DNA from: a virus
Strand: one strand, 5' to 3'
DNA: 64,000 bases
IMG/VR virus record: IMGVR_UViG_3300020469_005214
Span: 64,001-128,000 of that record
Part shown: positions 33,604-53,772 of the stretch, in pieces
Layout of the letters: each line of letters begins with the position of its first letter
How positions within the stretch are numbered: position 1 is the first letter of the stretch
Program-made: the position numbers and the translations under genes
Notes under the pieces: model-generated
What the model was told of the DNA's origin: nothing
The model's input: only the letters and a program-made list of their open reading frames with translations
Database searches by the model: none

Positions 33604-33806
33604 ATGAAGAAACAAAAACACCTATCGATAAAATAAGGGCTGAAGCCAAAAAAATTGAAGATGCCATTGAATATGCAGATGCTAAAGTCGCAGAAAGATT
33701 TGGCGATTCAAGATGGACTGAAACAGATGGTACAGAACATTATACAGATAGAGCGCAAGATTTATTTAATGAATACTACGACAGTTACCAAAGGTTAACA
33801 ATATAA
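33600..33806 (+). CDS. hypothetical protein
   Basis: Follows a sigma70 promoter. Confidence 0.55.
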   Translation: MNEETKTPIDKIRAEAKKIEDAIEYADAKVAERFGDSRWTETDGTEHYTDRAQDLFNEYYDSYQRLTI

Positions 33807-33818
33807 ATTATTTTTTTT

Positions 33819-33894: not shown

Positions 33895-33900
33895 CATTTA

Positions 33901-33977
33901 GCCCCTATCGTCTAGTCTGGTTAGGACACCGCGTTTTCATCGCGTCAACCACGGTTCGAATCCGTGTAGGGGTGCCA
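33901..33977 (+). tRNA. tRNA-Glu(UUC)
   Basis: Cloverleaf; anticodon loop TTTTCAT; GGTTCGAATCC; encoded CCA. Confidence 0.92.
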
Positions 33978-34067
33978 TTTTTTTTAAAAAAGATGTTGAC
34001 ATCTATAAAAACACTAATATAAATGTAAAAACAGTTATAAATATAAAACACAAATGATTAAACACAA

Positions 34068-34466
34068 ATGATTAAACAAATAGACAAACAAGTATTACGC
34101 TCCCTTCGATCAGAAATCAATACAGCATTGGAGCCATTAGCTGAGAAATATGGAATTAAATTTGATGCAGGTAACGCTACATTCTCAGAATTTAATGCCA
34201 CAATCAAATTAGAAATCGCAACTTCTAAAGATGGAGATTTTGTTACCAAAGAGGGTCAAGATTTTCTTAATTATGCAGAATTGCTTGGATTATCTAAAGA
34301 TATGCTAAATAAAGAGTTTACTTATTTCGGAACTGCATACATTCTTAATGGATATTCGCCTCGCTCTTCTAAATTTCCTTTTATTGCTGAAAAGGTAGAA
34401 GATGGTCGCTCATACAAGTTACCTAAAAATGCCGTAACTGCGGAAAATTTTAAAGAAGTTGCTTAA
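34068..34466 (+). CDS. hypothetical early protein
   Basis: 132-aa ORF after a sigma70 promoter. Confidence 0.65.
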   Translation: MIKQIDKQVLRSLRSEINTALEPLAEKYGIKFDAGNATFSEFNATIKLEIATSKDGDFVTKEGQDFLNYAELLGLSKDMLNKEFTYFGTAYILNGYSPRSSKFPFIAEKVEDGRSYKLPKNAVTAENFKEVA

Positions 34467-36413
34467 TGGAAAATAAAATATACGACAAACCAATCGCGTT
34501 CGATGTAGATATGCCAGTAAAAGGAGTTAAAAGGTTTACTGTTTACGCAAGAAGCGATGAAGAAGCGGTTAAAAAAGTCGAGACACGCGCTTTTGAACCC
34601 TTTGATTCAGAGTGGTTTGAGGAACTTGATTGCGAAAAGCCTTATGTCATTGACGCTGATGAATCAAATGTTCATCCTAGACCAATTCTTTCGAGTATTG
34701 TTACAAACATAGAAAATTAATCGATATTATGCCAGATTATAAAATAACTGTAACAGAAACAGTAACTTATCAATCGATTGTTTCTATTCCAAAACAAGAT
34801 AATGATACAGATGTCGAGCAATTAATAGTTGACAACTTTTATAACAATGGTCATTATGATAATTCTAATATCTTACACTCAGAAACTTCTGATATAGAAA
34901 TCCAACAAATGAACAGATATGATAGTTAAACTAAATGATAAAGATTACGTTCGTCAAAAAATGGAGGATACATTAGACGAAGCTGATGGATTAGCGGAGC
35001 TAATTTGTGAAGGCGGAGCAGAAGGCGTATATACTCAAAAAGAATTGTTGACAATGCAGAGCGAAGCAGATACATTGTTTTCTCTTGCTAACGCTTTAGA
35101 AATGCGTTTAAAAAAACTAAATAACCAATTATAAAAATGAGCGAAATATATAAAGGACATTATACTAATCTAGCCCAACCTGCCGAAGAAGGCGTATATC
35201 GCGTAGGCGTAGTTACTACAGTAACTCGTTATATCGATATAAAAGCTCCTTCTCAAGAAGAAGCCAATGAAGAGGCAAAACGATATTATGATGAGGAAAT
35301 CCACAGTCGTGATGATTGGAAATGGGATGTCGAGGAAGAAGAAGAGTTTGATCATGTCTTTGAAGCCGATATTTAGTCTTGACTTTTATAATTTACCACT
35401 CATTATTCTAACCACTAAATAACACACACTATGAACATAACAAAAAGAGAATACGACTTAATCAGAGACGAGCTTACTGGCGGTTGTTGGAGTGCGAGTT
35501 TCGAGGATGAGTACGGAGTTGAATTAAGTCGTTCAGTTGTGAATAAGACTGAGGACGAATTAACTCAAGAATTGGAAAGCGGATGGGTTCCGCAACCAAT
35601 GACCGAACTTAAGCAGTGGGCGTTAGCAAGCTACCAGTATATATCCCAAGATGAATACAGATTACTACAGTAAATGTGACGAGATAATTGAGCAAGGTGT
35701 ATGCACCGAAGACGAGTTATCCATTGCGGTACGCTTTGGAGGCGCATCTATGGAAACCCTAGAAAATCTAATCAAGTACAAGGCACAATTAAAAGCAGAA
35801 TACAACACACTATGACACTAGAAGACACACACTTACAGGTAGACTTACCAAACGCACCTACTGACAAGCTATTGAACTACGACATAATTCTTAGAGTAAA
35901 TGACGAAGGCGATGCTTATGAAGGATTTTCTCTCTATGATTATAAAAACCAAGAAGAAATTACTTGGGTATCATTTAATAAATAAACACACTAACTATAG
36001 AGATATGCCCAAACCAACACAAACAACAGAACTAGATGATGCTCGTAGAGTATTAGGAATGCTTGATACTGTAACTGATCCAGAAGAATATAAAAAAATC
36101 TTTGGGGTTAAAGATAAAGATGTCGAAAAAATGAGGCAACTTATTGCAGAAAGAGGTAAGCCCAAAAAGAAAGTATTTGAAATAAGCGAGGAAAATGATG
36201 ATGAATAAAACAGAAGCATATATTAGAGCATCAAGATTCTACTTGTCTGAGGAACTTCCTCAAGACTTTGAGAGTTTGGATGAAGAAGAGGTAACAACAT
36301 TCATCCATGAGAACATTTGGGAACCATTTGAGCTTTGGGATTCTTATGATATTCTTGAGCTTATTGATGATTTGGCTTGTGAATTTCTTAGTGTTTCTTC
36401 TAATAAAAGTTAA
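34466..36413 (+). other. run of small, mostly acidic hypothetical ORFs (34466-34720, 34729-34929, 34919-35134, 35137-35376, 35431-35673, 35812-35985, 36005-36208, 36195-36413)
   Basis: Tightly packed + strand ORFs. Confidence 0.6.
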
Positions 36414-37430
36414 ACTAAATAATAAGAGACACTTTAAATTAAATATCTAAAGATATATTAGTAATAAAAGGAAGAATTTAATTTTAAAACCTATTCTAAG
36501 TGACTTATAATCAGCTACAAATAATCCGTCAAATAAACCAATGGTATAACTAGCTTTTTAAGGTCTAAAGCCTTGTAGAGCTTTATATACAAATATAACC
36601 TTTTACCTCAGTAAAATAGCATAATAAGATAAAATAAATAAGTAGAATATATAAAGAAATAATATATATAAATATACATAGAATAAATAAAAAAATAATA
36701 GAACTAGATAGGTATTTTTTGCTTGTAGGGGATTATCCAGTTTATATTTTTTAAATAAATGGATTTTTTTTGCAAAAACCCTATTTTTTTTTATAAATAA
36801 TGCTTTTTTTCTATATTCTGCCTATAATTATAGTATTGACATGATCAAATAAATACTTACAATTTCAAATAAAAGTTTTTTCATCCCAAATAAATGAATA
36901 AAAAAAAATAATAAAAAAAAATATTTTTAAATAAATAATATAAAAAAAGTTTTTATTTTCCCAAATAAGCGTTTTATTAATAAGGCTCTATAGTTCAAGG
37001 GATAGAACAAGACACTTCTAATGTTTAGATCTGAGTTCGAATCTCGGTGGAGCTACCAAAAAAAATAAAAGTTTTTTTTCGCGAAATAAATGTATAAATT
37101 TTTATAAAAAAAAATAAAAGTTTTTTCGGCCTAAATAAAGGCGCATATAAAAAAATAAAAAAAAAGTTTTTTTTGCCCAAATAAATGTCCATATAAAAAA
37201 ATAAAATAAAAAAAAATATTCTTGACAATGTAGCAAAATAAAAAAAATAAAATAAAAAATTTTTTTCTTGACAAGATAAAAAAAATAAAATAAAATAAAG
37301 GTTTTATCTGCCCAAATAAAGGTGCAGGCGTATATAAGAAAAAGTATACTATATAAAGTATATAAAAAAGTATTATATATAGGCGGATAATTTAATTTGT
37401 TTTTTTTTATTTTTTTTTAAAAAAAGCTTG
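36414..37430. repeat. very AT-rich non-coding region with repeated AAAG-TTTT-N8/9-AAATAA units
   Basis: Copies near 36871, 36945, 37067, 37116, 37162 and 37297. Confidence 0.7.
36984..37058 (+). tRNA. tRNA-Arg(UCU)
   Basis: Cloverleaf; anticodon loop CTTCTAA; GTTCGAATC; encoded CCA. Confidence 0.93.
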
Positions 37431-37462
37431 ACTCATGTGATCAAGTCTGCATTATTGTGGAC

Positions 37463-38179
37463 ATGATTAAACCAAAAAACATATATCCATTATCACTGGG
37501 TGCCGACGCCAAAACCGTAAAGGGTCAGCTATTAGGTTATGCTACGGGTATACTTTATCTGGCTCCCGTAAAAGAAGCAGGATTTGGCAACGTTTGCCCA
37601 AATGCTTCTGCAGGTTGCGCTTCTTCCTGCCTCTTCACAGCGGGACGGGCTAAAATGTCCAGTGTCCGTAAAGCCCGTATTGCTAAAACTCAACGCTTTT
37701 TTAAAGAAAAAGATGAATTTTTGGCTGATATTACGTCTGCTATTATAAAAATGTTTGATTATGTAAAGAAGATGGAGTACAGCTTTGCAGTCAGGCTAAA
37801 CGGCACCAGTGATTTACCGTTTGAAAAATTCGGGATTTTTGACAAGTTCGAAGATATTACTTTTTATGATTATACTAAGTCAAAAAGAAGAATGATGACT
37901 TATCTTAATGGAGACATGCCAAAAAATTATTCTCTTACTTTCTCACGCAGCGAGACAAACCATGATGATTGCATGGAAGTTCTAGAGGCAGGCGGCAACG
38001 TGGCCGTAGTATTTGCAACTAAAAAGAATAAAGATTTGCCAGATGAGTGGAAGGGATATAAAATTGTAGACGGCGATAAATCTGATTTAAGATTTTTAGA
38101 TGATAAAAACGTTATTGTTGGCTTACGTGCAAAAGGCGACGGAATTAAAGATGAAAGTGGATTTGTAGTAAAAATATAA
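37463..38179 (+). CDS. GP88-like phage protein with Cys cluster
   Basis: CP.AS.GC...CL...GR, VRLNGTSD, FYDYTK, DGD.SDLRFLD. Confidence 0.7.
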   Translation: MIKPKNIYPLSLGADAKTVKGQLLGYATGILYLAPVKEAGFGNVCPNASAGCASSCLFTAGRAKMSSVRKARIAKTQRFFKEKDEFLADITSAIIKMFDYVKKMEYSFAVRLNGTSDLPFEKFGIFDKFEDITFYDYTKSKRRMMTYLNGDMPKNYSLTFSRSETNHDDCMEVLEAGGNVAVVFATKKNKDLPDEWKGYKIVDGDKSDLRFLDDKNVIVGLRAKGDGIKDESGFVVKI

Positions 38180-39251
38180 TGGAATATATATTAGAAATAA
38201 GTGCAGGCTATCTAGATCGAGAATCTGATCGGATGTTACAATATAACGGCCTATCCTTAAAGGAATGGATCAAAGCATATTGTAAAAGAAATAAAATAGA
38301 ATTATCTACTAATTATGGGGACCTGACATTAGGATTTAAATCAGAAAATCAATTAAATTGCTTTACACGGCGCGGAAATGGGATATTTCCTTATTTCGAG
38401 TTTTTATGACATTATTAATTATTGTATTTATTCTTTTATTACTTTTCCAGGATTAAGCTTGACAAACTCAAATATATGTAAATAATAAACTCATGAAATA
38501 TAACCATATGTATGATATAGCCTTCACTATTGAATCAAATAATGAAGAAGAAGATGTTACCATAGATGAATTAATTGAAGGTGTCGAAAAAAGGCTAGTT
38601 CAATTAAAGTCTGAACGGGATATCGAAGCCTACGGGTATTGTGATTCTTTTAAAATTTCGGGATTGAGACCATCGACTCAAATTTAATCTTGACACAACC
38701 AGAATACCAAACATTATAGTAACCATGAATGCAGAAAAAATAACACAGTTCATCAAGGAAAAATGTCTCGAAATAGTCGGGGGAAAACCCAACGAGGATG
38801 GTATCCTTGTTTTAACTCCAGAGCAAAAAGAATCATACGATTCTGAAGAAAGTAAATGGGAACGCTTCCATAAGTCATGTGAATATTGGAATTGGAACTT
38901 TGGTTACGCTGGAGTAGCTAAAGAAATCATTGACAATTATCATGAATGGGAACGAGATGAGTTATATGAATTTATTAACTTTTATTTTGAAAATAAACAT
39001 TATTCTGACGAAATAAACGATATTATTGAAGTTTTTGAATAAAAATAGTTGACAATTTCAAAAAAATATTTATTATGTGTAAATAATAGTTCTCACACAA
39101 AAAAAAAATTATGGAATACGTAACAACAGCAATCAATTGGGTAAAAGCCAATAAAAAGACAGCAATCATAGGACTTGTGGTAACACTAGTCGTATTAAAC
39201 CTATTAACTGGTGCCCTTGGATGTGGTGCTGAAGTAGTAGTAGCAGACTAA
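38179..39251 (+). other. small hypothetical ORFs (38179-38409, 38406-38456 micropeptide, 38493-38687, 38725-39042, 39111-39251 membrane peptide)
   Basis: ORF track plus hand translation; several have their own sigma70 promoter. Confidence 0.55.
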
Positions 39252-39252
39252 T

Positions 39253-39495
39253 ATGGAAACTGAAATAGTAGCAAATCCAAGTTTTTGGAAAATTTTGTTG
39301 ACAAGCCCACTGACTTACATCATTTTGTTGATCATTGGTGTGACGATTTTTGAACTTAAAAAACCAAAATCGGCTCCAAAGGCGGAAATAACCCCTAAGA
39401 AGACAGTCACAAAAAAGCCTACCAAAAAATCTACTAAGAAACCTACTAAAAAAACAGTTAAAAAAGCAGTTAAAAAATCGACCAAAAAGTCGTAA
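39253..39495 (+). CDS. membrane-anchored Lys-rich (histone H1-like tail) protein
   Basis: Transmembrane segment followed by TKKP/TKKS/VKKA repeats. Confidence 0.65.
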   Translation: METEIVANPSFWKILLTSPLTYIILLIIGVTIFELKKPKSAPKAEITPKKTVTKKPTKKSTKKPTKKTVKKAVKKSTKKS

Positions 39496-39553
39496 TCGTT
39501 CTTTGCAATTTTGCAGATAATATAAAATACTATTCGCGGGGGATAACATTTTC

Positions 39554-40154
39554 GGATGCCTCGTGGGAAAGCTCAACTCAATCGAGATAGAAGCATACGC
39601 AATTATGTGATGAGGGTGTGTTAGGTTTTATATTGTAATAGCAGACTCTGACAAGCGACAGAGCGGCTCCCACCATAGAGTCTTAAATTCTCGAAAACTT
39701 GTCAGAGTCACCTGCTATTTATCTTGAATGGATGGATCATGTATAAGAAGATAATTTTATTGATTAAATTATTTAGAAGATGCGAAGTTCGTTCTCGATA
39801 AATAGTTTTATTTTGTTTGTTTGGAATAGACATAAGAAAATGTAATTTAGTGTGTTCTAGGGTATCATATGATATACATCCTAGGCGGTGAAATTTATTC
39901 TTGACAAATAACATCTTAAAGAGTAGCTTGTTTGGATTAATTAAAATCGATTAATATTAATCTTAGAGTCTTGACTTGAGGCGGTTAATAGATAATAACT
40001 CGGAAATAATGCCTTATTTTTCTGCGGAAGCTCAAAAAAAGGGCAAATAATAGGAGGTAATTACCTCGCCTGGGCTGACGAGCCTTGGAAATACAAAAAG
40101 AGAAGACGGCAGTCTGAGGGAGGCGATCAACCCCAAGAAACAAAGGAGGCATCC
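39554..40154 (+). ncRNA. candidate large (~600 nt) structured non-coding RNA
   Basis: Terminal helix GGATGCCTC/GAGGCATCC; perfect 12-bp internal helix; many hairpins; no + strand ORF of 60 aa or more. Confidence 0.65.
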
Positions 40155-40215
40155 ATTGATCACATTTTTTTAGAAAAGTCTTGACAACATTGATTAGGGG
40201 TATATGGTTGCGCCT

Positions 40216-40401
40216 ATGAAGATTACAATTACACAAAAACAACACTACGGCACCTATTACTTTTATCCTAACTGCGATAATTCGAGGTTGTTCACCAAAC
40301 TAACTGGCAGGAAAACATTAACGATTGAAGACATCAAGGTTATTAAAAACTTAGGATATGAGGTCGAAGTCGGTCAAGAGAATGTGTTAAACTTTAATTA
40401 A
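40216..40401 (+). CDS. hypothetical protein
   Basis: ATG 35 nt after TTGACA. Confidence 0.6.
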   Translation: MKITITQKQHYGTYYFYPNCDNSRLFTKLTGRKTLTIEDIKVIKNLGYEVEVGQENVLNFN

Positions 40402-40520
40402 TATTTTTGGTGTAGTCTAGGTTCCCGATAATCCTTTGTGGTGAGAAAATCGGATTTTTTTTTATTTTTTTTTAAAAAAGGCTTGACAAAAGATTTTTGG
40501 TGTGCATACTTATAAGCACC

Positions 40521-40922
40521 ATGACTAAACTATACGAAAAACTAACCAAAGAAGCTAAGAAGCTCAACGAATACAACGACTGCGCTGTAAAGGCCATAGC
40601 AATCGTTTGCAACATCAACTATAAAGAAGCTTGGAGCCTAGCCAGAAAATTTGGCAGACGTCCTCGTGGGAGAACAAACTCTCTCAATATCACCTACCCT
40701 GCAATCAAATCGAAAGGGTTCGATTGCACTCAGTTGGAGAATCATAAGATGAACAAGGCTAAGACTATCAGAAGTCTGAAGCCTTTGATTCCATCACGAG
40801 GAGTGTTCCTCATTTTTGTCAGAGGGCATATACTAGCCGTAAGAGGTGGAGAGATTCACGATTGGACAGAGGGCAGATGTCACCGAATCGAACTAATTGT
40901 AAGAGTGTCAAAAAAAGCTTGA
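40521..40922 (+). CDS. hypothetical protein, possible Cys/His papain-like fold
   Basis: NDCAVKAIA ... GHILAV..G.IHDW. Confidence 0.55.
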   Translation: MTKLYEKLTKEAKKLNEYNDCAVKAIAIVCNINYKEAWSLARKFGRRPRGRTNSLNITYPAIKSKGFDCTQLENHKMNKAKTIRSLKPLIPSRGVFLIFVRGHILAVRGGEIHDWTEGRCHRIELIVRVSKKA

Positions 40923-40981
40923 CAAACATTAGAAAGTCCACACTATGAACTACCTATTATTAACTTAACCAAAGGAAAACT

Positions 40982-41569
40982 ATGCCAAACTGGTGCACTA
41001 CAGATATAACTATAAAAGGATCAAAGAAAGATATCAAATGGGTATACGATTTGATTCAAAAACACAATGATCGCAAAGAAGACTCAGTGGGATTCTTTGA
41101 ATCACTAATTCCATCTCCTAACTGGGACAAGACACCCAACGAAGATGGGGAGTTGCCTGTTCCTGATCCTGCTAGGGATGCAGATGGCAACATCACTTTT
41201 ATGTTTAGCAAGTTTCCATCCACAGGCAGGAATGATGACAGGTGGTATGACTGGAACATCAACAACTGGGGAACTAAATGGGAAGTAAGCAACATAGAGG
41301 TAACTGACATAAGCGATGATCAACTAGTTTGCTATTGGGATACTGCTTGGAGTCCATCTATTCCTATCTTTAATAAACTAGTTGAGCGTGGCTTGGATGT
41401 CGATGCTGAATTCAAGGATGAAGGTTGGATGTTCGCAGGTAGGTATGTGAATGGAGAGGTCGAAGATTATAAAATTGAAATCATTGAAGCCGATGAAAAC
41501 GAGGAAGATGATGGATGGGATAGGGTCATTGTTTATTCAAAGGAATGTCCTGAAGGAGAACATTATTAA
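40982..41569 (+). CDS. YubB/DUF1281-like ferredoxin-fold protein
   Basis: MPNWC, WYDW...NWGTKW and DTAWSP motifs. Confidence 0.75.
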   Translation: MPNWCTTDITIKGSKKDIKWVYDLIQKHNDRKEDSVGFFESLIPSPNWDKTPNEDGELPVPDPARDADGNITFMFSKFPSTGRNDDRWYDWNINNWGTKWEVSNIEVTDISDDQLVCYWDTAWSPSIPIFNKLVERGLDVDAEFKDEGWMFAGRYVNGEVEDYKIEIIEADENEEDDGWDRVIVYSKECPEGEHY

Positions 41570-41638
41570 AAAAGGCTTGACATCTGTAAAAAGGATGTCA
41601 GGCTGAATCCAATCTTTTAATTATAACCATATACACAA

Positions 41639-41950
41639 ATGAACAAAAACCTAAAAACTAACTTCGACAAACTTAAATTCTCAGAGCTATTCAAGGTGTC
41701 TTCTACAGAGCCACATACAATGACTTTGGATGAACGCCAAGAACTGGGAGGTTGGCAAAAAATATTCGAGTTTCCCAACGGCTTTGGAGCTTCTGTAGTC
41801 GTGCACGAATTTTCTTATGGCTTAGAACTTGCTTTGCTTGACAAAAGCCATAATATAGTTCAACACCCAGAAATTACTAATGATGTCGAAGGCTATCTCA
41901 ACACTGACAGTGCTTGTGATATACTTCAAAAAATTGCAAAATTAGCATGA
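41639..41950 (+). CDS. conserved phage hypothetical protein
   Basis: F.FPNGFGASVV....SYG..ELA.L...DV.GYL pattern. Confidence 0.65.
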   Translation: MNKNLKTNFDKLKFSELFKVSSTEPHTMTLDERQELGGWQKIFEFPNGFGASVVVHEFSYGLELALLDKSHNIVQHPEITNDVEGYLNTDSACDILQKIAKLA

Positions 41951-42008
41951 TCTTGTGTTCATACGTGTAGTCGTCGTCTCGCCTTGTGGTTAGGGCGAGG
42001 CGACATTT
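41951..42008 (+). ncRNA. candidate sRNA: single-stranded seed plus 13-bp hairpin with GTGGTT loop
   Basis: Hairpin 41973-42004; loop complementary to the AACCAC leader motif. Confidence 0.5.
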
Positions 42009-42031
42009 CGCGAAATATAAATTAATATTAT

Positions 42032-42101
42032 GGGGGTGTAAGGGTTTCGACTTAAACTATTTAGTTTGAACACGGTGGTTCAACTCCACCCACCTCCACC
42101 A
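42032..42101 (+). ncRNA. mini-tmRNA (tRNA-like domain only)
   Basis: 5' GGGGGTG..GG.TTCGAC; 3' GGTTCAACTCC...CACCTCCACCA; G3:U alanine identity pair; 6-bp hairpin replaces the mRNA-like domain. Confidence 0.8.
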
Positions 42102-42283
42102 TTTTATTCTTTCCTAGGACGCCCTTGAGATTGGGCCAAACGAAGAGCCGTAGCGTTAATACGGATCGCAATGGGGATTTGCGTGAGGTAGTGAGAAGAA
42201 CTCTGCCATCTCTATTTTTTATTTTATTTTTTTTTGAAAAAAAAGTATTGACTTAGCCAAACGACCATTCATAATGCAAAACC

Positions 42284-45200
42284 ATGAAGACAATACAACT
42301 ATCACTACACCGCTCCGAGGACGAACCTTTCCTTCAAAAATGGGAAGTCGCCCGCAAATGCGTTTTCTCTGCTAAACTTAATGCAGAACATATCGATTAT
42401 CCAAATGCTCCAACAAAACTAGCTGAGCTTTTGTTTCACGTTACCAACGCACCATTTGAAATGTTGGATAAAGTGCATGAAAAAATTCTTCTAGCTCTAT
42501 GGGAGAATTGTAAAAAACAAGATACTTTTTACTCGACAAGCGTTGGCGATGTCGTTAAGATTCACGATCATATTAGTGGAGAACGCACTACACTTATGTG
42601 CAAGTCAGTTGGATGGGAGGAATTATAATGGATACAAAAACAATACCTAATGAGGGACGATACGATTATTCGATCAGCCTAGTAGATAGCTTTAACAAAC
42701 AAATTAAAGAAGCCTATGAATACGAAAAAAATCACGCATACAAAGAATACGAAAGTAAAATTATATCGTATCGAATGGGGGTGGAGTGACGGCTCTGATG
42801 ATTCATCGCCTCCAACTCTAGTAGCAGTTGGTGCTAATCCCTATGAAGTTTGGGGCGATGAATACGAATGGTCAGACAACCAATTTGGGTTTGATAACGA
42901 CATACATTACTGGTTTGAGGATATGGACGAACTGAAGTCTTATTGCGTAAATGACGGCAAGGGCGAGTGGTATATTAAATCATACGAGTTTGTTCGAGAA
43001 CATGATCTAGCAGAAATTTAACATATAAATTAATATTATGCCAACAGAAAAACTAACCGAACCACAGTTTCTTAGAACAAAAGAGATAACTGACACCATC
43101 ATGGATGATATCCGTGTTGTTTTAAAAAAATATAAAAAAGATATTCCTATGTGGGATAATGAAAATATAAATTATAATTTAGAGAGTCATATTCGCGACC
43201 ATGTTAGAATTGATGTAGTGCGCGAGGTTATGAAACAATATAATGTATACATATAATTATTATGAGCGGAGCACAAGAGATAATAGAACGAAACTTTGAA
43301 CAACTCTGTATTGATACACTCGTTCCCTTGGGTATGAAACACGCAAGTGAAGAAAAAGAAAAATTATATAAATCTATAAGAGAGTTTGTTTATGAGTTTA
43401 TGTATGATTCATCGACATTAGAGGGCGTTGAAGAGGAAGCTGAGTATGTTCCTAACTATTATGATTTAAAATGGAGACCTTAACATGGACGAAAAATACA
43501 AAAAAGAAAGTCTTGACTTAGCACTTAGATGGTTTCAAGATAACGATGTTCCTGCATACGAGGACGATGGAAGTATATACGTTCAAGCAGGCAGGGATGC
43601 CGATGTCCAGATTTCAACATCTGAGATTGATTACAGAGCAGATTTACAAACAGATTATGAGCGCGAAAAACAGTCACTTAACAATTAGGGAAGAAGTAAC
43701 CGAGCAAGGTCTTGCCGTTCCCGTATCTTTACTATCTTTAGATGGAGAAGATGCCCTTTATATCCAGGACACGCCCTACTTAAATATTGATTGCGAGTAT
43801 TGCTCTGATCATTGTTTAGATGATAGTGGCTCGAACTTATTAGTTAAAATTACTGATCCTACTCAATTTGATGGAGACGGAAAACCTTTGAAAAATAGGC
43901 TTGCATTTGCTATTAATGCAGATTACGATTGGAACTGATGAAAAAACCATATAAAATACCATGTGCATGGGAAGTTGTTGCAATGGCAGAAGTAGAAGCG
44001 GAATCTTTGAATGAAGCCATTAGTAAAGTAGAAGATCACGATTTTCCATTGCCAATAGATAACTATTATGTAGATGACTCTTTCGAAATCGATAAGGATT
44101 GGCTTGAGAACTTATATGAAGAAGAATATGAAAAAACTAACTGATTACTGCTTAAATAATAAACTAGTCGCCACAGAAAAAGATGTTGAGTCGGCATTTA
44201 TGATTTGTGTTTGTGCAACTATATCCTTGACATTGATATTAATATCAACAATAATAGAATTAAATTAATTAATATTATGACACACTTAGAACCACAAATT
44301 GGATGTCTCTCAGATGATATCATTGAAAAATTAGATAAAAAAATGGAAGAGCTGAAAGGAATCGGTCTATCTGATATTGATATCTATATTATAAACCTTG
44401 CGATATCACTTAGTCAAAAAAAAGTCTTGACTTAAGTTTTCCCTCAACCATACTGGCTTTATGAAAATTACACTAAAAAAGATAGAACACTCGGAGTTTC
44501 AATCACAAGAAACTAACTGTTTCAAGGCTGACCTATATGTTGATGGAAAGCCTTTTGCCATTGTAAGTAACGATGGTATCGGTGGATGCGATATGCACTA
44601 CAAACACCCTAAGAATCCTCAAACTCCTCAAGAGTATCACGAGGAATTAGATAGTATTTTTAAGTGGCACAGAGAAAACACTACTTATAAAACTGAGTTT
44701 GACGACAGGGGATATAGCGAAGGTAGCTTGGATATGACAGTAAGTGATATCTTGGTAGATCATTTAATTACTAAAGATGTTAAGAAGCTAATGTCTCGCT
44801 CTATGATTGTATTTGAAAAGGGTCAAGAAGGCTATTACAAGTTTGGAAAAAAGAAGTATGGAATAGTTCAAGAGACTATGGATGCTTTTAAGGCTAAGCT
44901 TGACAAATGGTATGGAGATAAGTGGGTATGTATAAACGATATGCCTATTGACGAAGCAGTTGCTTACTATAAAACTAATTAAAATTATGACTACAGAAAA
45001 CAAAATACCATACGGACTAGTTGAACATTGGCTAGGCTCAGATGCACAACTAGAAGAAGCAATTGATATCTTAACTGATATCGCAAACGGAGATTATGCT
45101 CCTAGTCTATTAAAAGAAGACATATTAAGTCTAGAAGATTCTTATGAAGAAGCATTAGACTGTATGGATGAAATACATTCCCCAAGTTAAGATGCCAACA

Positions 45201-50763: not shown

Positions 50764-51576
50764 ATGAAAACATCAATCGAAACACTACTGTCTTGGAATC
50801 CAACTGCTACACCTCTCTCTGATGAGTTTGGTAAAGTTGGTTACCAATCTATCCGTCGCGATGATAACAACTCTTTAATTGGAGTAGTTGGTCAAAAGCG
50901 TTCCATTATCTCGAATCGCGAGTGCGTCCAGTCTATCGTAGACATGGCAAACTCATTAAACGTTCCATTTGGAAACCCTTATGTTAACGAGTTTAACGGA
51001 GGCGGAAAAATTCACGTTTCTTTCCCTCTACCAGAGGAGAGAATACAAGGTGATTCTTTTAGCCCAGAATTGCGTTTTACTTTCTCACACGACTCTAGCG
51101 AGCGTAGGAGAGTCTATTTCGCTTATTCACGTAACGCTTGCTCTAACATCTTTGCAAGTGCTGTTAAAAAAGGAGAGGGAATTTTTGCTAAGTTTTCTCT
51201 GAATCACTCGGAGAATTTCGCTAGTCGAATCTCTGGTTTTCCAGAAAGAATCAAAGAGTTAAGATTTGAGACAGACAGTGCTATTCAGCGTTTGCAGTCT
51301 ATTAAAGTAGTAGACCCTGCCCCGTATATCAAACGCCTTATAAAAGGCGAGGGAAAGCGTTCTGACACGATCAGAGAAGAGATTGAAACTCTTTTCCGTT
51401 CTGGTCGCGGTAACGTAGGAGAAACTGCTTATGACATCTTTAACGGTTTTACTGAGTATTTAAACCACTCAGCGACATACAAAGAAACCGAAAATAAGAC
51501 GTCTGCTGAAAATCGCATAAGTAGATTAGTTAACACCGATATCGTAGATGTCGCGAGAGAGTTAGCTAGAGTCTAA
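50764..51576 (+). CDS. DUF932-like phage/plasmid protein (270 aa)
   Basis: IRRDD....GVVG, GG.., SHD.S, R.ACSN, TAYDIFNGFTEY..H; ATG 50764 preferred over TTG 50710. Confidence 0.75.
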   Translation: MKTSIETLLSWNPTATPLSDEFGKVGYQSIRRDDNNSLIGVVGQKRSIISNRECVQSIVDMANSLNVPFGNPYVNEFNGGGKIHVSFPLPEERIQGDSFSPELRFTFSHDSSERRRVYFAYSRNACSNIFASAVKKGEGIFAKFSLNHSENFASRISGFPERIKELRFETDSAIQRLQSIKVVDPAPYIKRLIKGEGKRSDTIREEIETLFRSGRGNVGETAYDIFNGFTEYLNHSATYKETENKTSAENRISRLVNTDIVDVARELARV

Positions 51577-51583
51577 AAATTAC

Positions 51584-51620
51584 AAGGTCGTATTGGAAAT
51601 TCTGATACGACCTTTTTTTT
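51584..51620 (+). terminator. intrinsic terminator
   Basis: AAGGTCGTAT/ATACGACCTT stem plus T run. Confidence 0.85.
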
Positions 51621-52192
51621 GGCGTAATAATACGAAATAATTTTTTTTCAAATTGTATTTGAAATCTGGATACAAAAATATAAAGCAGTTTTTTTTATCC
51701 GAAATAAAAGAGAAAATTTTTATTAGAGAGCTTGGCTCTCTAAAAATAGAAATATATTTTCCGAAATAATGATTAATTTTTTATTACAGAGCTTGGCTCT
51801 GTAAAATAGTTTTTTCTCTCTCAAATAATGTATTTGAAATTCTGATATAAAAAAAAAGAATTATATTCCCCAAATAAAAGAAAAACTTTTTATTAGAGGG
51901 CTTGGCCCTCTAAGTATAACCAGCAAATAAAAAAAAATAATTCTAAATAAATAAGCGCGTAATAAAGAAAAGTTTCCATAAATAAATAAGCGTATATAAA
52001 AAAGAATAATTTTTCCTGGTGCCGAGCAAAACCGGGTATTAGCCGGTCTTATAGCAAGTATTAGATTATCTTATGGCATACCGCCAGGCGGGATTTTAAC
52101 GGCCTATTTAGTGGAAAAATTTTTTTTATTTTTTTTCATCTATTTGCGCCTATGGACTTGACTCACTTAAAAAACTATCCTATTTTATAGAT

Positions 52193-52285: not shown

Positions 52286-53098
52286 ATGAAAACACTAAAT
52301 GCTCAACAAGCACTCGAACTCACAATCGTCGAATCTAAACTCAACTGCGAGTTTAAGCAGATCGACATTAATGGCGAGTATGCCGCGACTGTAGGTATCA
52401 AACGCTCGATACCGACATTCGAGAATCTGCTCGATCCATTCGTTCACTTGTCGAACGGCTTACAAGTCGACTTCGATCCTAAGATCGAATTGTTCCGCTC
52501 AAAGTTCGGAACTGAAGGCGCATCCTACGCGATGTCAATGCCACTCGGTAAAATCGAACTTGGCGGACGCGAGACCGAAACTCGCATCATTCGTAGAGGA
52601 TCATTCAATTCATCCGCATCCGATTCATTCGGCATTGAGATGATGGTAATGATTTGCTCAAACGGGATGATGGGATGGAAAGCCGAAAGCGAAAGCGGAC
52701 GCGCTAAGAGTCGCTTCTCACTCAACTGGGAATCGAACGCAGGAAACAAAGTCAATGCAATGCTAGACGGCTTTTCCTCAATGCAGGATCGATACATTCG
52801 GATCGCGGACGAACTTAGAGATATCAAACTCTCTAAGGAACAAGTCGACAATCGACTTGAGAAGCTATTCGGAAAAGACTCAAAGCAGTCGGATCGAGTT
52901 CGCGAACAAGTTCAAGATTTGTTCGTAAGTGGTAAGGGTAATCGTGGCGAGAATGCATGGGACTTGTTCAATGCCGTCACCGAATATCAGAATCATGAAC
53001 GAACTTACAAAGTGACTTCAGTTTCGTCCGATGAAAATCGTCGAAAGGGAATTCTCGACATTGACTTCGATTCACTTGCCGAAGTATTGGTAGCATAA
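52286..53098 (+). CDS. DUF932-like protein (270 aa), paralog of 50764..51576
   Basis: ICSNG and NAWDLFNAVTEY..H; C-terminal third aligns by eye with the paralog. Confidence 0.75.
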   Translation: MKTLNAQQALELTIVESKLNCEFKQIDINGEYAATVGIKRSIPTFENLLDPFVHLSNGLQVDFDPKIELFRSKFGTEGASYAMSMPLGKIELGGRETETRIIRRGSFNSSASDSFGIEMMVMICSNGMMGWKAESESGRAKSRFSLNWESNAGNKVNAMLDGFSSMQDRYIRIADELRDIKLSKEQVDNRLEKLFGKDSKQSDRVREQVQDLFVSGKGNRGENAWDLFNAVTEYQNHERTYKVTSVSSDENRRKGILDIDFDSLAEVLVA

Positions 53099-53142
53099 TG
53101 GAAATTATAATTCTTACTTTCCTTCTGCTAGTCTTGTTCTAA
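53098..53142 (+). CDS. hydrophobic micropeptide MEIIILTFLLLVLF
   Basis: TAATG stop/start overlap; lies inside the transcription unit before the terminator. Confidence 0.5.
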   Translation: MEIIILTFLLLVLF

Positions 53143-53147
53143 AAATC

Positions 53148-53180
53148 AAAGTCTCACTCGAAAGGGTGGGACTTTTTTTT
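53148..53180 (+). terminator. intrinsic terminator
   Basis: GTCTCACTC-GAAA-GGGTGGGAC plus T run. Confidence 0.85.
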
Positions 53181-53772
53181 ATGCCTTCCCCAAGAAATAG
53201 TTGTATTGAAAATTTGGATACATAAAAAAGGTTTTTATAATTCTAAATAGTGTATTGAAAATCTTGATACGACTTTAGTCGTATAGCAGTTTTTAAAATC
53301 GGAAATAATTGTATCCATAATCTTGATACGGCATTGCCGTATAAAAGTTTTTATCCCCGAAATAAAGGGACAATTTTTATTAGAAGGCTTGGCCTTCTAG
53401 ATGGTTTTAGTGTATCGAAAATCTTGATACAATCACCGGTCCCATTAGCAAAACTGATTCTTAGTATTAGAAAATTTAATAGCTTTTTTATTTGACAAGC
53501 CCGGATTTTTATGTTAGCCAAAAGTCTTGGTACTAGCGCAGGGGTGGTAGTTCTCCCGAACGTTTTATCGCACCCTTAACTATTACAATGATTATTTTTT
53601 TATACTTTGCAAGCTTTTTTTTATTTTTTTTTATTTTTTTTCTTAGACCGGGAACCTGGGACCTGGCATCCCTGCAAAGTTTTTTTATTTTTTTATTTGA
53701 CAACCTATTTTCTCTATCCATTGTCTTTTATGTCGAGGGGCAATTCAGCCCAAACAACTCGACCTACATAAC

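What the first reader, a model, noticed from the sequence alone, without database searches (positions are those of the whole stretch)
39554..40154. Candidate ~600-nt highly structured non-coding RNA
Seen: no + strand ORF of 60 aa or more in an otherwise gene-dense region. The ends pair (GGATGCCTC 39554-62 with GAGGCATCC 40146-54). A perfect 12-bp helix (39644-55 with 39698-709) is extended by AATAGCA/TGCTATT. GTGGGA (39563) and TCCCAC (39668) could form a pseudoknot. Further helices include AAGATG/CATCTT, CTAGG/CCTAG and TCGCCT/AGGCGA, and a T run follows. Known: GOLLD and ROOL are large phage RNAs of this size class found near tRNAs. I cannot assign the family by eye, so it may be new.
Basis: partly seen in the sequence, partly recalled or inferred. 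Interest (0 to 1): 0.8.

Follow-up and report, generated by a model that had tools for sequence, protein, structure and literature searches.

The report
Modular structured RNA in marine phage
An ORF-free 0.7-kb gap in a large uncultured marine phage most likely encodes an undescribed, modular, folded non-coding RNA; it is kept far better than neighbouring genes in the few close relatives that have it, but its transcript and function are not shown.

Summary

The element occurs only in a narrow clade of uncultured marine phages: three sequence lineages in about 30 contigs. Its conserved blocks are 91-97% identical between lineages. Flanking genes are 78-90% identical, with third codon positions at 52-81%.

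Substitutions inside the predicted helices keep pairing. Several are double compensatory changes. In the 3' domain, 70 of 416 helix cells are G-U and one is C-A, which points to an RNA read from the + strand.

The 600-nt length is not conserved; relatives are 419-513 nt. The conserved parts are a 5' domain (39554-39640) and a 3' domain (39915-40154). Between them lie three optional hairpin arms: B, and the paralogous C and D. Only the window has all three.

Weak points: folding energy is ordinary for the two conserved domains taken alone. The 9-bp terminal helix never varies and has a competing partner. No transcript, promoter or terminator is shown. More distant relatives lack the element.

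Verdict: a probable new phage non-coding RNA family of the large-RNA kind (ROOL, GOLLD, the ICP1 RNA), function unknown. The scan noted this same stretch twice in an overlapping window, never on other DNA.

The parts
39496..39553 (+). Conserved upstream block, probably the promoter and 5' leader. It holds ATATAAAAT (39520-28), 9 nt before a G run (39538-42).
   Evidence: 95-100% identical between lineages. The same ATATAAAWT motif sits 8-9 nt before tRNA-Lys and the mini-tmRNA. No TTGACA-type -35 is present. Promoter function is inferred only.
39554..39640 (+). Conserved 5' domain (A). It includes the 5' strand of terminal helix P1 (39554-62) and the hairpins 39587-92/39626-31, 39594-600/39616-24 and 39603-06/39610-13.
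   Evidence: Present in every copy, 91-97% identical. Consensus fold: four one-sided changes keep pairing (A-U to G-U, C-G to U-G, U-G to U-A, G-C to G-U) and one breaks it.
39641..39714 (+). Optional arm B: the 12-bp helix 39644-55 / 39698-709 with an inner hairpin.
   Evidence: Present in the window, the L004 class and the L011 class; absent in the L002 and L006 classes. One compensatory A-U to G-C change in the helix.
39715..39807 (+). Optional arm C, a long irregular hairpin.
   Evidence: Present only in the window and the L002 class. It is a paralogue of arm D, with the same start and end motifs and a shared basal helix showing covariation.
39808..39914 (+). Optional arm D: basal helix 39813-30 / 39894-911 and a tip hairpin CTAGG/CCTAG. 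The TTGACA at 39901 is one strand of the basal helix.
   Evidence: Present in the window, the L006 class (shortened tip) and the L011 class. Basal helix: 16 pairs, 97.5% of cells paired, 4 pairs changed on both sides, 7 of 500 shuffles as good. Tip: U-A to C-G in L011 and G-U in L006. C+D fold z = -3.1.
39915..40005 (+). 3' domain, part E1: a three-way junction. Stem 39921-24/39998-40001 encloses hairpins 39926-29/39966-69 + 39934-41/39956-63 and 39971-76/39983-88.
   Evidence: Present in all copies. Compensatory A-U/G-C at 39939:39958. G-U, G-C and A-U all occur at 39973:39986. One-sided wobble changes at three more pairs.
40006..40154 (+). 3' domain, part E2-E3. It holds several short hairpins, three GGAGG motifs (40053, 40119, 40145), a conserved core at 40104-40136, and the 3' strand of P1 (40146-54). 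That strand can pair instead with 40009-15.
   Evidence: The core and the P1 strand are invariant or nearly so in all lineages. 40045-40100 is replaced in the L011 class by an unrelated hairpin, which itself shows two G-U-creating changes. Only 34 GGAGG occur on the + strand of the 64-kb window, and local genes lack SD sequences.
40155..40186 (+). 3' flank: a conserved ATTGATC, the T run, and the -35 of the next gene's promoter.
   Evidence: Conservation continues to TTGACA at 40181-86 and then drops. The T run plus TTGACA module recurs at 40467-89. No + strand terminator-like site is found here.

Best explanation
The gap encodes a non-coding, + strand, structured RNA of a family not yet described. 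It is specific to a narrow clade of large uncultured marine phages.

Shown:
- A conserved 5' domain and a conserved 3' domain are always found together.
- Between them lie up to three dispensable hairpin arms. Two of these, C and D, are paralogues whose copy number ranges from 0 to 2, apparently through recombination at shared end motifs.
- Helices keep pairing through substitutions, with many G-U pairs on the + strand.

Inferred:
- The RNA is made early, like the surrounding small + strand genes. It either has its own start near 39535, downstream of an ATATAAAAT motif shared with the phage tRNA-Lys and mini-tmRNA genes, or comes from read-through from the promoter at 39049.
- Its ends are clamped by the 9-bp helix 39554-62 / 40146-54, giving a multi-arm molecule of about 420-640 nt.
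- It acts as a stable scaffold or decoy that binds a host or phage factor through the invariant sequences of the 5' and 3' domains. The arms would be tolerated peripheral elements.
- The only sequence clue to a partner is the cluster of GGAGG motifs in a phage region whose genes lack Shine-Dalgarno sequences. That would fit a contact with the ribosomal anti-SD or with an RNA-binding protein. This last step is speculation.
For: - No ORF or coding signal.
- Conserved blocks are 91-97% identical between lineages. Flanking genes are 78-90% identical, with third codon positions at 52-81%.
- 3' domain: 52 pairs, 99.5% of cells paired, 7 pairs with changes on both sides, covariation score above all 500 shuffles and above all slid controls.
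- Arm basal helix: 4 of 16 pairs changed on both sides.
- Compensatory changes in arm B and in the arm D tip.
- The hairpin that replaces part of the 3' domain in the L011 class shows two G-U-creating changes of its own.
- 70 G-U cells against one C-A cell in the 3' domain helices, and + strand MFE of -165 against -126 kcal/mol for the - strand.
- The 5' and 3' domains co-occur in all ~30 contigs and are both absent from more distant relatives.
- P1 appears in the MFE fold of all five architecture variants.
- Context: three tRNA genes and a mini-tmRNA nearby.
Against: - No expression data. No clear promoter (-35 absent) and no + strand terminator.
- Only three lineages, recombining among themselves, so covariation has little statistical power. 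The structures were derived from the same sequences that were then counted.
- The conserved domains alone fold no better than shuffles (z = -1.1 and -1.4). The region is only about 2 SD from other windows of the phage.
- P1 never varies. Its predicted probability ranges from 0.09 to 0.99 between variants, and 40009-15 competes for the same 3' strand.
- Relatives at about 75% neighbour identity lack the element.
- No repeated loop motif and no antisense target in the phage genome, so the decoy/scaffold role has no direct support.
Confidence: 0.5

Rival explanations
1. The gap holds two or more independent small RNA elements rather than one large RNA. One would be a 5' RNA (about 39536-39714) and one a 3' RNA (about 39915 or 40009-40160). 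The optional hairpins between them would be fillers or insulators.
For: - The middle third is dispensable.
- The 3' domain can close on itself through 40009-15 / 40146-52. That pairing dominates in the L006 variant, with probability 0.84.
- P1 has no covariation.
- In L004 and L011, arm B is followed by a U-rich stretch that could end a 5' RNA.
- Earlier readers of an overlapping window split the stretch into two RNAs.
Against: - The two domains are never found apart.
- L004 has lost the only internal TTGACA-type sites upstream of the 3' domain, yet it keeps that domain 100% identical to the L002 class.
- The TTGACT at 39971 varies as a helix strand, not as a promoter.
- The L002 and L006 classes have no arm B to end a 5' RNA.
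Confidence: 0.2
2. The region is an untranslated part of an mRNA, not a free-standing RNA gene. It would be a long structured 3' UTR of the upstream membrane-protein operon (promoter at 39049), or a leader that protects or processes early transcripts.
For: - There is no terminator between the stop codon at 39495 and the element.
- Conservation already starts at 39472, inside the upstream gene.
- All genes here are on the + strand.
- No convincing promoter of its own was found.
Against: - The upstream gene differs between lineages while the element stays the same.
- The downstream gene has its own promoter directly after the element and is nearly leaderless.
- Conservation is much higher than expected for a stabilising UTR.
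Confidence: 0.15
3. It is a DNA-level element, such as a replication origin, a cluster of protein-binding sites or promoters, or a recombination hotspot. The hairpins would be incidental.
For: - The centre is AT-rich, with GC about 0.29.
- It contains promoter-like TTGACA sites.
- Modules are gained and lost by recombination.
- The whole 33.9-40.2 kb segment is an accessory island absent from L012.
Against: - Helix substitutions go through G-U pairs on the + strand only, 70 against 1. Neither DNA hairpins nor protein-binding sites predict this.
- Two of the TTGACA-like sites covary as helix strands.
- No iterons or tandem repeats lie in the conserved domains.
Confidence: 0.08
4. It encodes one or more very small proteins, for example the 22-aa ORF at 39556-39624 that is open in all variants, or the 5-codon ORF after AAGGAGG at 40143-40173.
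For: - The 22-codon frame is open and the same length in all lineages. Two of its seven substitutions are synonymous third-position changes.
- AAGGAGG lies 6 nt before a TTG.
Against: - Five of the seven substitutions change the amino acid, about what is expected with no selection on the protein.
- The nearest SD-like G run is about 13 nt from the ATG.
- Local genes do not use SD sequences.
- No family matches.
- The 86-aa - strand ORF is frame-shifted between two indels in L002 and disrupted in L011.
- Small ORFs would cover only a small part of the conserved sequence.
Confidence: 0.03

Closest known systems
ROOL and GOLLD large 'ornate' bacterial and prophage RNAs (PMC5737381; cryo-EM in bioRxiv 10.1101/2024.12.08.627333)
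   Same: Size class of about 0.4-0.8 kb. ORF-free gap in a phage genome. Close to tRNA genes. Many stems and junctions. Function unknown.
   Different: No match to any Rfam model even at E = 10. Known only from one narrow clade of marine phages rather than several phyla. One third of the length consists of arms present or absent between near-identical strains. The conserved core is not thermodynamically exceptional. Pseudoknots and multimer formation are untested.
Abundant long non-coding transcripts of lytic phages: the ~800-nt RNA of Vibrio phage ICP1 (PMC7567579) and the lncRNAs of Staphylococcus phage K (PMC9241854)
   Same: They occupy ORF-less gaps of 0.3-1 kb in large virulent phages. 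Their role is unknown. The phage K RNAs lie near tRNA genes.
   Different: Those were found by RNA-seq; expression here is not shown. No DNA similarity to any of 50,697 phage records.
Phage T4 stable RNAs species 1 and 2 (rnaC, rnaD) in the tRNA gene cluster (own knowledge, not checked here)
   Same: Phage-encoded stable RNAs of unknown function near phage tRNA genes.
   Different: The T4 RNAs are about 120-140 nt and are co-transcribed with the tRNAs. This element is 3-5 times longer and lies 2.5 kb from the nearest tRNA gene.
6S RNA (proposed by another first-stage reading of 40002-40171)
   Same: A closing helix and purine-rich strands in a roughly 150-nt 3' domain.
   Different: No Rfam 6S hit. 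The predicted fold is a multi-hairpin loop, not a rod with a central bubble.

Membership tests
ROOL RNA (Rfam) | Score against the Rfam covariance model. [quoted passage not shown] | tested here: not met
   cmscan of the window at gathering thresholds and of 39400-40300 at E up to 10 with lax filters gave no ROOL hit.
GOLLD RNA (Rfam) | Score against the Rfam covariance model. | tested here: not met
   No hit.
6S RNA, tmRNA, RNase P RNA, group I/II introns, riboswitches and ribozymes in Rfam 15 | Score against the family's covariance model. | tested here: not met
   The only hits in the region are three chance-level ones at E 5-8 (two snoRNA models and a Na+ riboswitch on the - strand). ARAGORN finds no tRNA or tmRNA here.
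Retron msr-msd RNA | Terminal inverted repeats plus an adjacent reverse transcriptase gene. | tested here: not met
   Terminal 9-bp repeats are present, but no RVT_1 match anywhere in the 142-kb record. The neighbours are small genes of unknown function.
Y RNA / Ro-associated RNA | A long stem formed by the 5' and 3' ends, with a Ro (TROVE) protein gene in the genome. | tested here: not met
   No TROVE match in the record and no Rfam Y RNA hit.
Structured non-coding RNA (generic criteria) | Non-coding sequence conserved above the neutral level. | tested here: met
   91-97% identity against 52-81% at third codon positions of the flanking genes.
Structured non-coding RNA (generic criteria) | Covariation that preserves helices, with strand-specific G-U pairs. 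| tested here: met
   The support is modest because only three lineages exist and the structure was derived from the same sequences. No R-scape-grade statistics are possible.
Structured non-coding RNA (generic criteria) | Folding energy beyond the compositional expectation. | tested here: inconclusive
   Whole region z = -4.7, but -2.0 SD against other windows of the phage. The conserved domains alone give z = -1.1 and -1.4. Only arms C+D are clearly unusual, at z = -3.1.
Structured non-coding RNA (generic criteria) | A discrete transcript with defined ends. | not testable with these tools
   No transcriptome data are available. The promoter is only a motif resemblance, and no terminator was found.

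The most novel reading that the evidence does not exclude
The element is one discrete, abundant RNA of 0.42-0.64 kb with a defined global fold closed by the terminal helix. It would be a new class of large 'ornate' phage RNA comparable to ROOL and GOLLD, the first from marine virulent-type phages, with a strain-variable number of arms. It would work alongside the phage's other translation-related RNAs (three tRNAs and a tag-less mini-tmRNA). One possible mode is to engage ribosomes or an RNA-binding factor through its clustered GGAGG motifs, in a genome region whose genes lack Shine-Dalgarno sequences.
Probability: 0.2. Interest if true: 0.75.

Novelty: new variant of a known kind. Interest (0 to 1): 0.55.

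Why it matters
Large structured RNAs of phages (ROOL, GOLLD, the ICP1 and phage K transcripts) are few, abundant where measured, and of unknown function. A further, unrelated family from ocean phages would show that this kind of RNA is more widespread.

This one also offers natural deletion variants: 0, 1, 2 or 3 arms on the same core. Those variants amount to a ready-made structure-function series. The minimal 419-420-nt forms define what is essential.

Its place in an accessory island, together with tRNA genes and close to a mini-tmRNA, hints at a link to translation take-over.

Tried and rejected
- **Rfam:** the whole window at gathering thresholds and the region at E up to 10 gave nothing.
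- **blastn against 50,697 phage records:** no match.
- **Exact-pattern scans** with 5', middle and 3' core motifs:
  - Viral contigs found only the known relative, plus four chance 16-mer hits, L015-L018;
  - Metagenome contigs found two contigs of the same clade;
  - Genome contigs found none.
- **Homologues of neighbouring genes:** the 195-aa protein drops from 82% to 46% identity with nothing in between. Relatives at 78% and 57% identity of the 60-aa protein lack the element. L012 carries tRNA-Lys plus an ORF in its place, L013 has a 105-nt gap, and the L003 record has no match.
- **Paralogues or antisense targets in the 142-kb phage record:** none better than E = 0.3.
- **CsrB-like sponge idea:** by my own rough count and estimate (not a tool result) there are 12 GGA in 601 nt against roughly 9-10 expected from base composition, and no recurring loop motif. 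Dropped.
- **Tandem-repeat origin of all units:** only C-D and D-E1 show weak overall similarity (p about 0.06-0.07). The C/D relationship rests instead on shared end motifs and the shared basal helix.
not supported.
- **Internal TTGACA sites as promoters:** rejected for 39901 and 39971, because both covary as helix strands.
- **Retron and Y RNA ideas:** no RT and no Ro gene.

Full report
**Setting.** The window is bases 64001-128000 of a 141,669-nt IMG/VR virus record, estimated 77% complete. The phage has about 35% GC. It encodes ribonucleotide reductase, a DnaB-type helicase, a PolIII-alpha-type polymerase and a T4-type large terminase. No cultured phage is close: the best protein identities are about 45%, and the region has no DNA match among 50,697 phage records. 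The finding lies in a run of small + strand genes of unknown function. Most of these have their own TTGACA-type promoter and lack Shine-Dalgarno sequences. Three tRNA genes lie at 33.8-37.1 kb and a 70-nt tmRNA-like gene at 42032.

**Observation.** No + strand ORF of 30 aa or more lies between 39495 and 40204.
- The + strand folds to -165.4 kcal/mol, z = -4.7 against shuffles. The - strand folds to only -126.5 kcal/mol.
- Calibration tempers this. Against 212 other 600-nt windows of the same phage, adjusted for composition, the region is about 2 SD more stable than expected.
- Folded separately, the 3' domain (z = -1.1) and the 5' domain plus arm B (z = -1.4) are ordinary. Only the two central arms stand out, at z = -3.1.

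**Known families.** Rfam 15 gives no hit at gathering thresholds. At E up to 10 it gives only three chance-level hits, at E 5-8. ARAGORN finds nothing here. The element is single-copy in the phage record.

**Relatives.** Homologous loci were collected through the neighbouring 60-aa and 195-aa proteins and through DNA patterns. About 30 contigs from many samples carry the element. They collapse to nine distinct sequences in three lineages: the window; the L002/L004/L006/L024 group; and the L011/L027/L029/L031 group.
- More distant syntenic relatives lack it. L012 (78% identity in the 60-aa protein) has a tRNA-Lys and an ORF in its place. L013 (57%) has a 105-nt gap. The L003 record has no match.
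- Compared with L012, the window carries a 6.3-kb extra segment (33895-40214) that holds two tRNA genes, an AT-rich region, several small genes and this element.
- Exact scans with three core motifs found nothing outside the clade in the viral, metagenome and genome collections.

**Architecture.** A conserved block runs from about 39472-39496 to 40186.
- Always present: the 5' domain (39554-39640, with 58 conserved nt upstream) and the 3' domain (39915-40154).
- Optional: arm B (39641-39714), arm C (39715-39807) and arm D (39808-39914).
- The combinations seen are A-B-C-D-E (window only, 601 nt), A-C-E (422 nt), A-B-E (420 nt), A-D-E (419 nt) and A-B-D-E' (513 nt).
- C and D are paralogues. 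They share the start motif TTGTYTKGAATRGA, the end motif GYGAARTTYRTTCTYGAYAAATAR, and a 16-bp basal helix formed by these ends. Recombination at these motifs explains the clean gains and losses.
- In the L011 class, 40045-40100 is replaced by an unrelated hairpin.

**Selection.** Between lineages the conserved blocks are 91-97% identical. The three downstream genes are 78-90% identical overall and 52-81% at third codon positions. The non-coding blocks are therefore under constraint.

**Structure and strand.**
- 3' domain consensus fold: 52 pairs, 99.5% of 416 cells paired, and 7 pairs changed on both sides. The covariation score of 0.231 compares with 0.146 ± 0.011 in shuffles (0 of 500 as high) and with 0.03-0.12 for slid partners.
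- The clearest cases in homologous sequence are 39939:39958 (A-U and G-C) and 39973:39986 (G-U, G-C and A-U).
- Arm basal helix: 4 of 16 pairs changed on both sides; 7 of 500 shuffles reach the observed score.
- Arm B: one A-U to G-C change.
- Arm D tip: U-A to C-G in L011, and a G-U in L006 alongside a shortened loop.
- 5' domain: four wobble-preserving changes and one break.
- L011-class replacement hairpin: two changes, both creating G-U.
- G-U makes up 70 of 416 helix cells in the 3' domain, against a single C-A. The folded molecule is therefore + strand RNA, not DNA and not a - strand transcript.
- Caveats: only three recombining lineages exist, the structures were derived from the same sequences, and R-scape-grade statistics are not possible.

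**What is not supported.**
- Terminal helix P1 (39554-62 / 40146-54) is invariant. A 9-mer complement between the two conserved end blocks has a chance expectation of about 0.03, by my own estimate. P1 appears in the MFE fold of all five variants, but its ensemble probability ranges from 0.09 to 0.99.
- The segment 40009-15 competes for the same 3' strand.
- The T run belongs to a repeated promoter module, and no + strand terminator is found.
- The TTGACA at 39901 and the TTGACT at 39971 behave as helix strands.

**Transcription (inference).** The upstream block has no -35 box. It does carry ATATAAAAT, 9 nt before a G run. The same ATATAAAWT motif lies 8-9 nt before the tRNA-Lys gene and the mini-tmRNA gene. 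The motif occurs 19 times in the window against 9.5 expected. Read-through from the promoter at 39049 is equally possible.

**Coding.**
- The 22-aa + ORF (39556-39624) is open in all variants. It shows 2 synonymous and 5 replacement changes, its SD-like run is about 13 nt away, and it matches no family.
- The 86-aa - strand ORF is frame-shifted between two indels in L002 and rebuilt in L011.
- Coding is unlikely.

**Function.**
- There is no antisense target or paralogue in the phage record, no reverse transcriptase and no Ro gene, and no repeated loop motif.
- One clue is three GGAGG motifs within 97 nt of the 3' domain. The + strand of the whole 64-kb window has 34, and local genes have no SD. 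By my own Poisson estimate this is about p = 0.02 after correcting for scanning.
- The best reading is a stable scaffold or decoy RNA of the kind seen as abundant long non-coding transcripts in other large phages (PMC5737381, PMC7567579, PMC9241854), whose roles are also unknown.

**Verdict.** This is a real, conserved, most probably RNA-level element and a probable new family. Transcript, ends, global fold and function remain open.

Noticed in passing
window 33801-33809, 39520-39528, 42015-42023: The motif ATATAAAWT lies 8-9 nt upstream of the tRNA-Lys gene, of the mini-tmRNA gene, and of a G run just before the candidate RNA. This may be a shared -10-type element for the phage's stable-RNA genes. 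It occurs 19 times in the window against 9.5 expected.
   Followed up: partly
window 33895-40214 compared with L012:1039-1452: Relative L012 joins the tRNA-Lys gene almost directly to the 60-aa gene. The window therefore carries a 6.3-kb accessory segment that L012 lacks, holding tRNA-Glu, tRNA-Arg, an AT-rich region, a GP88-family gene, small genes and the RNA element. L012 has a roughly 100-codon ORF in its place.
   Followed up: partly
window 35900-44000 (gene starts): Early genes here have no Shine-Dalgarno sequence. Several starts sit directly after a TTGACA-N16/17 promoter (for example the promoter at 40181 and the ATG at 40216), which suggests leaderless or near-leaderless mRNAs.
   Followed up: partly
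window 40146-40171: The 3' strand of the terminal helix reads ...GGCATCCA and a T run follows shortly after. The phage tRNA genes end in an encoded CCA followed by a T or A run. AAGGAGG also lies 6 nt before a TTG that opens a 5-codon frame. Both may be coincidence.
   Followed up: no
L003:620-700: In the distant relative L003, the space upstream of the 141-aa gene homologue holds an array of about 11-nt units ending in GAAATAA or CAAATAA, instead of the RNA element.
   Followed up: no
window 51301-51900 and 52801-53400: These are the most stable 600-nt windows of the 64 kb after adjusting for composition (z = -3.7 and -2.7), more extreme than the candidate RNA region. They coincide with the hairpin series noted by another reader.
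   Followed up: no
window 39253-39495 compared with L002:2731-2931: The upstream small membrane protein with a lysine-rich tail differs between lineages (80 aa against 66 aa, no DNA similarity) apart from its last ~24 nt. DNA homology resumes at 39472, so a recombination boundary lies inside the gene's 3' end.
   Followed up: no
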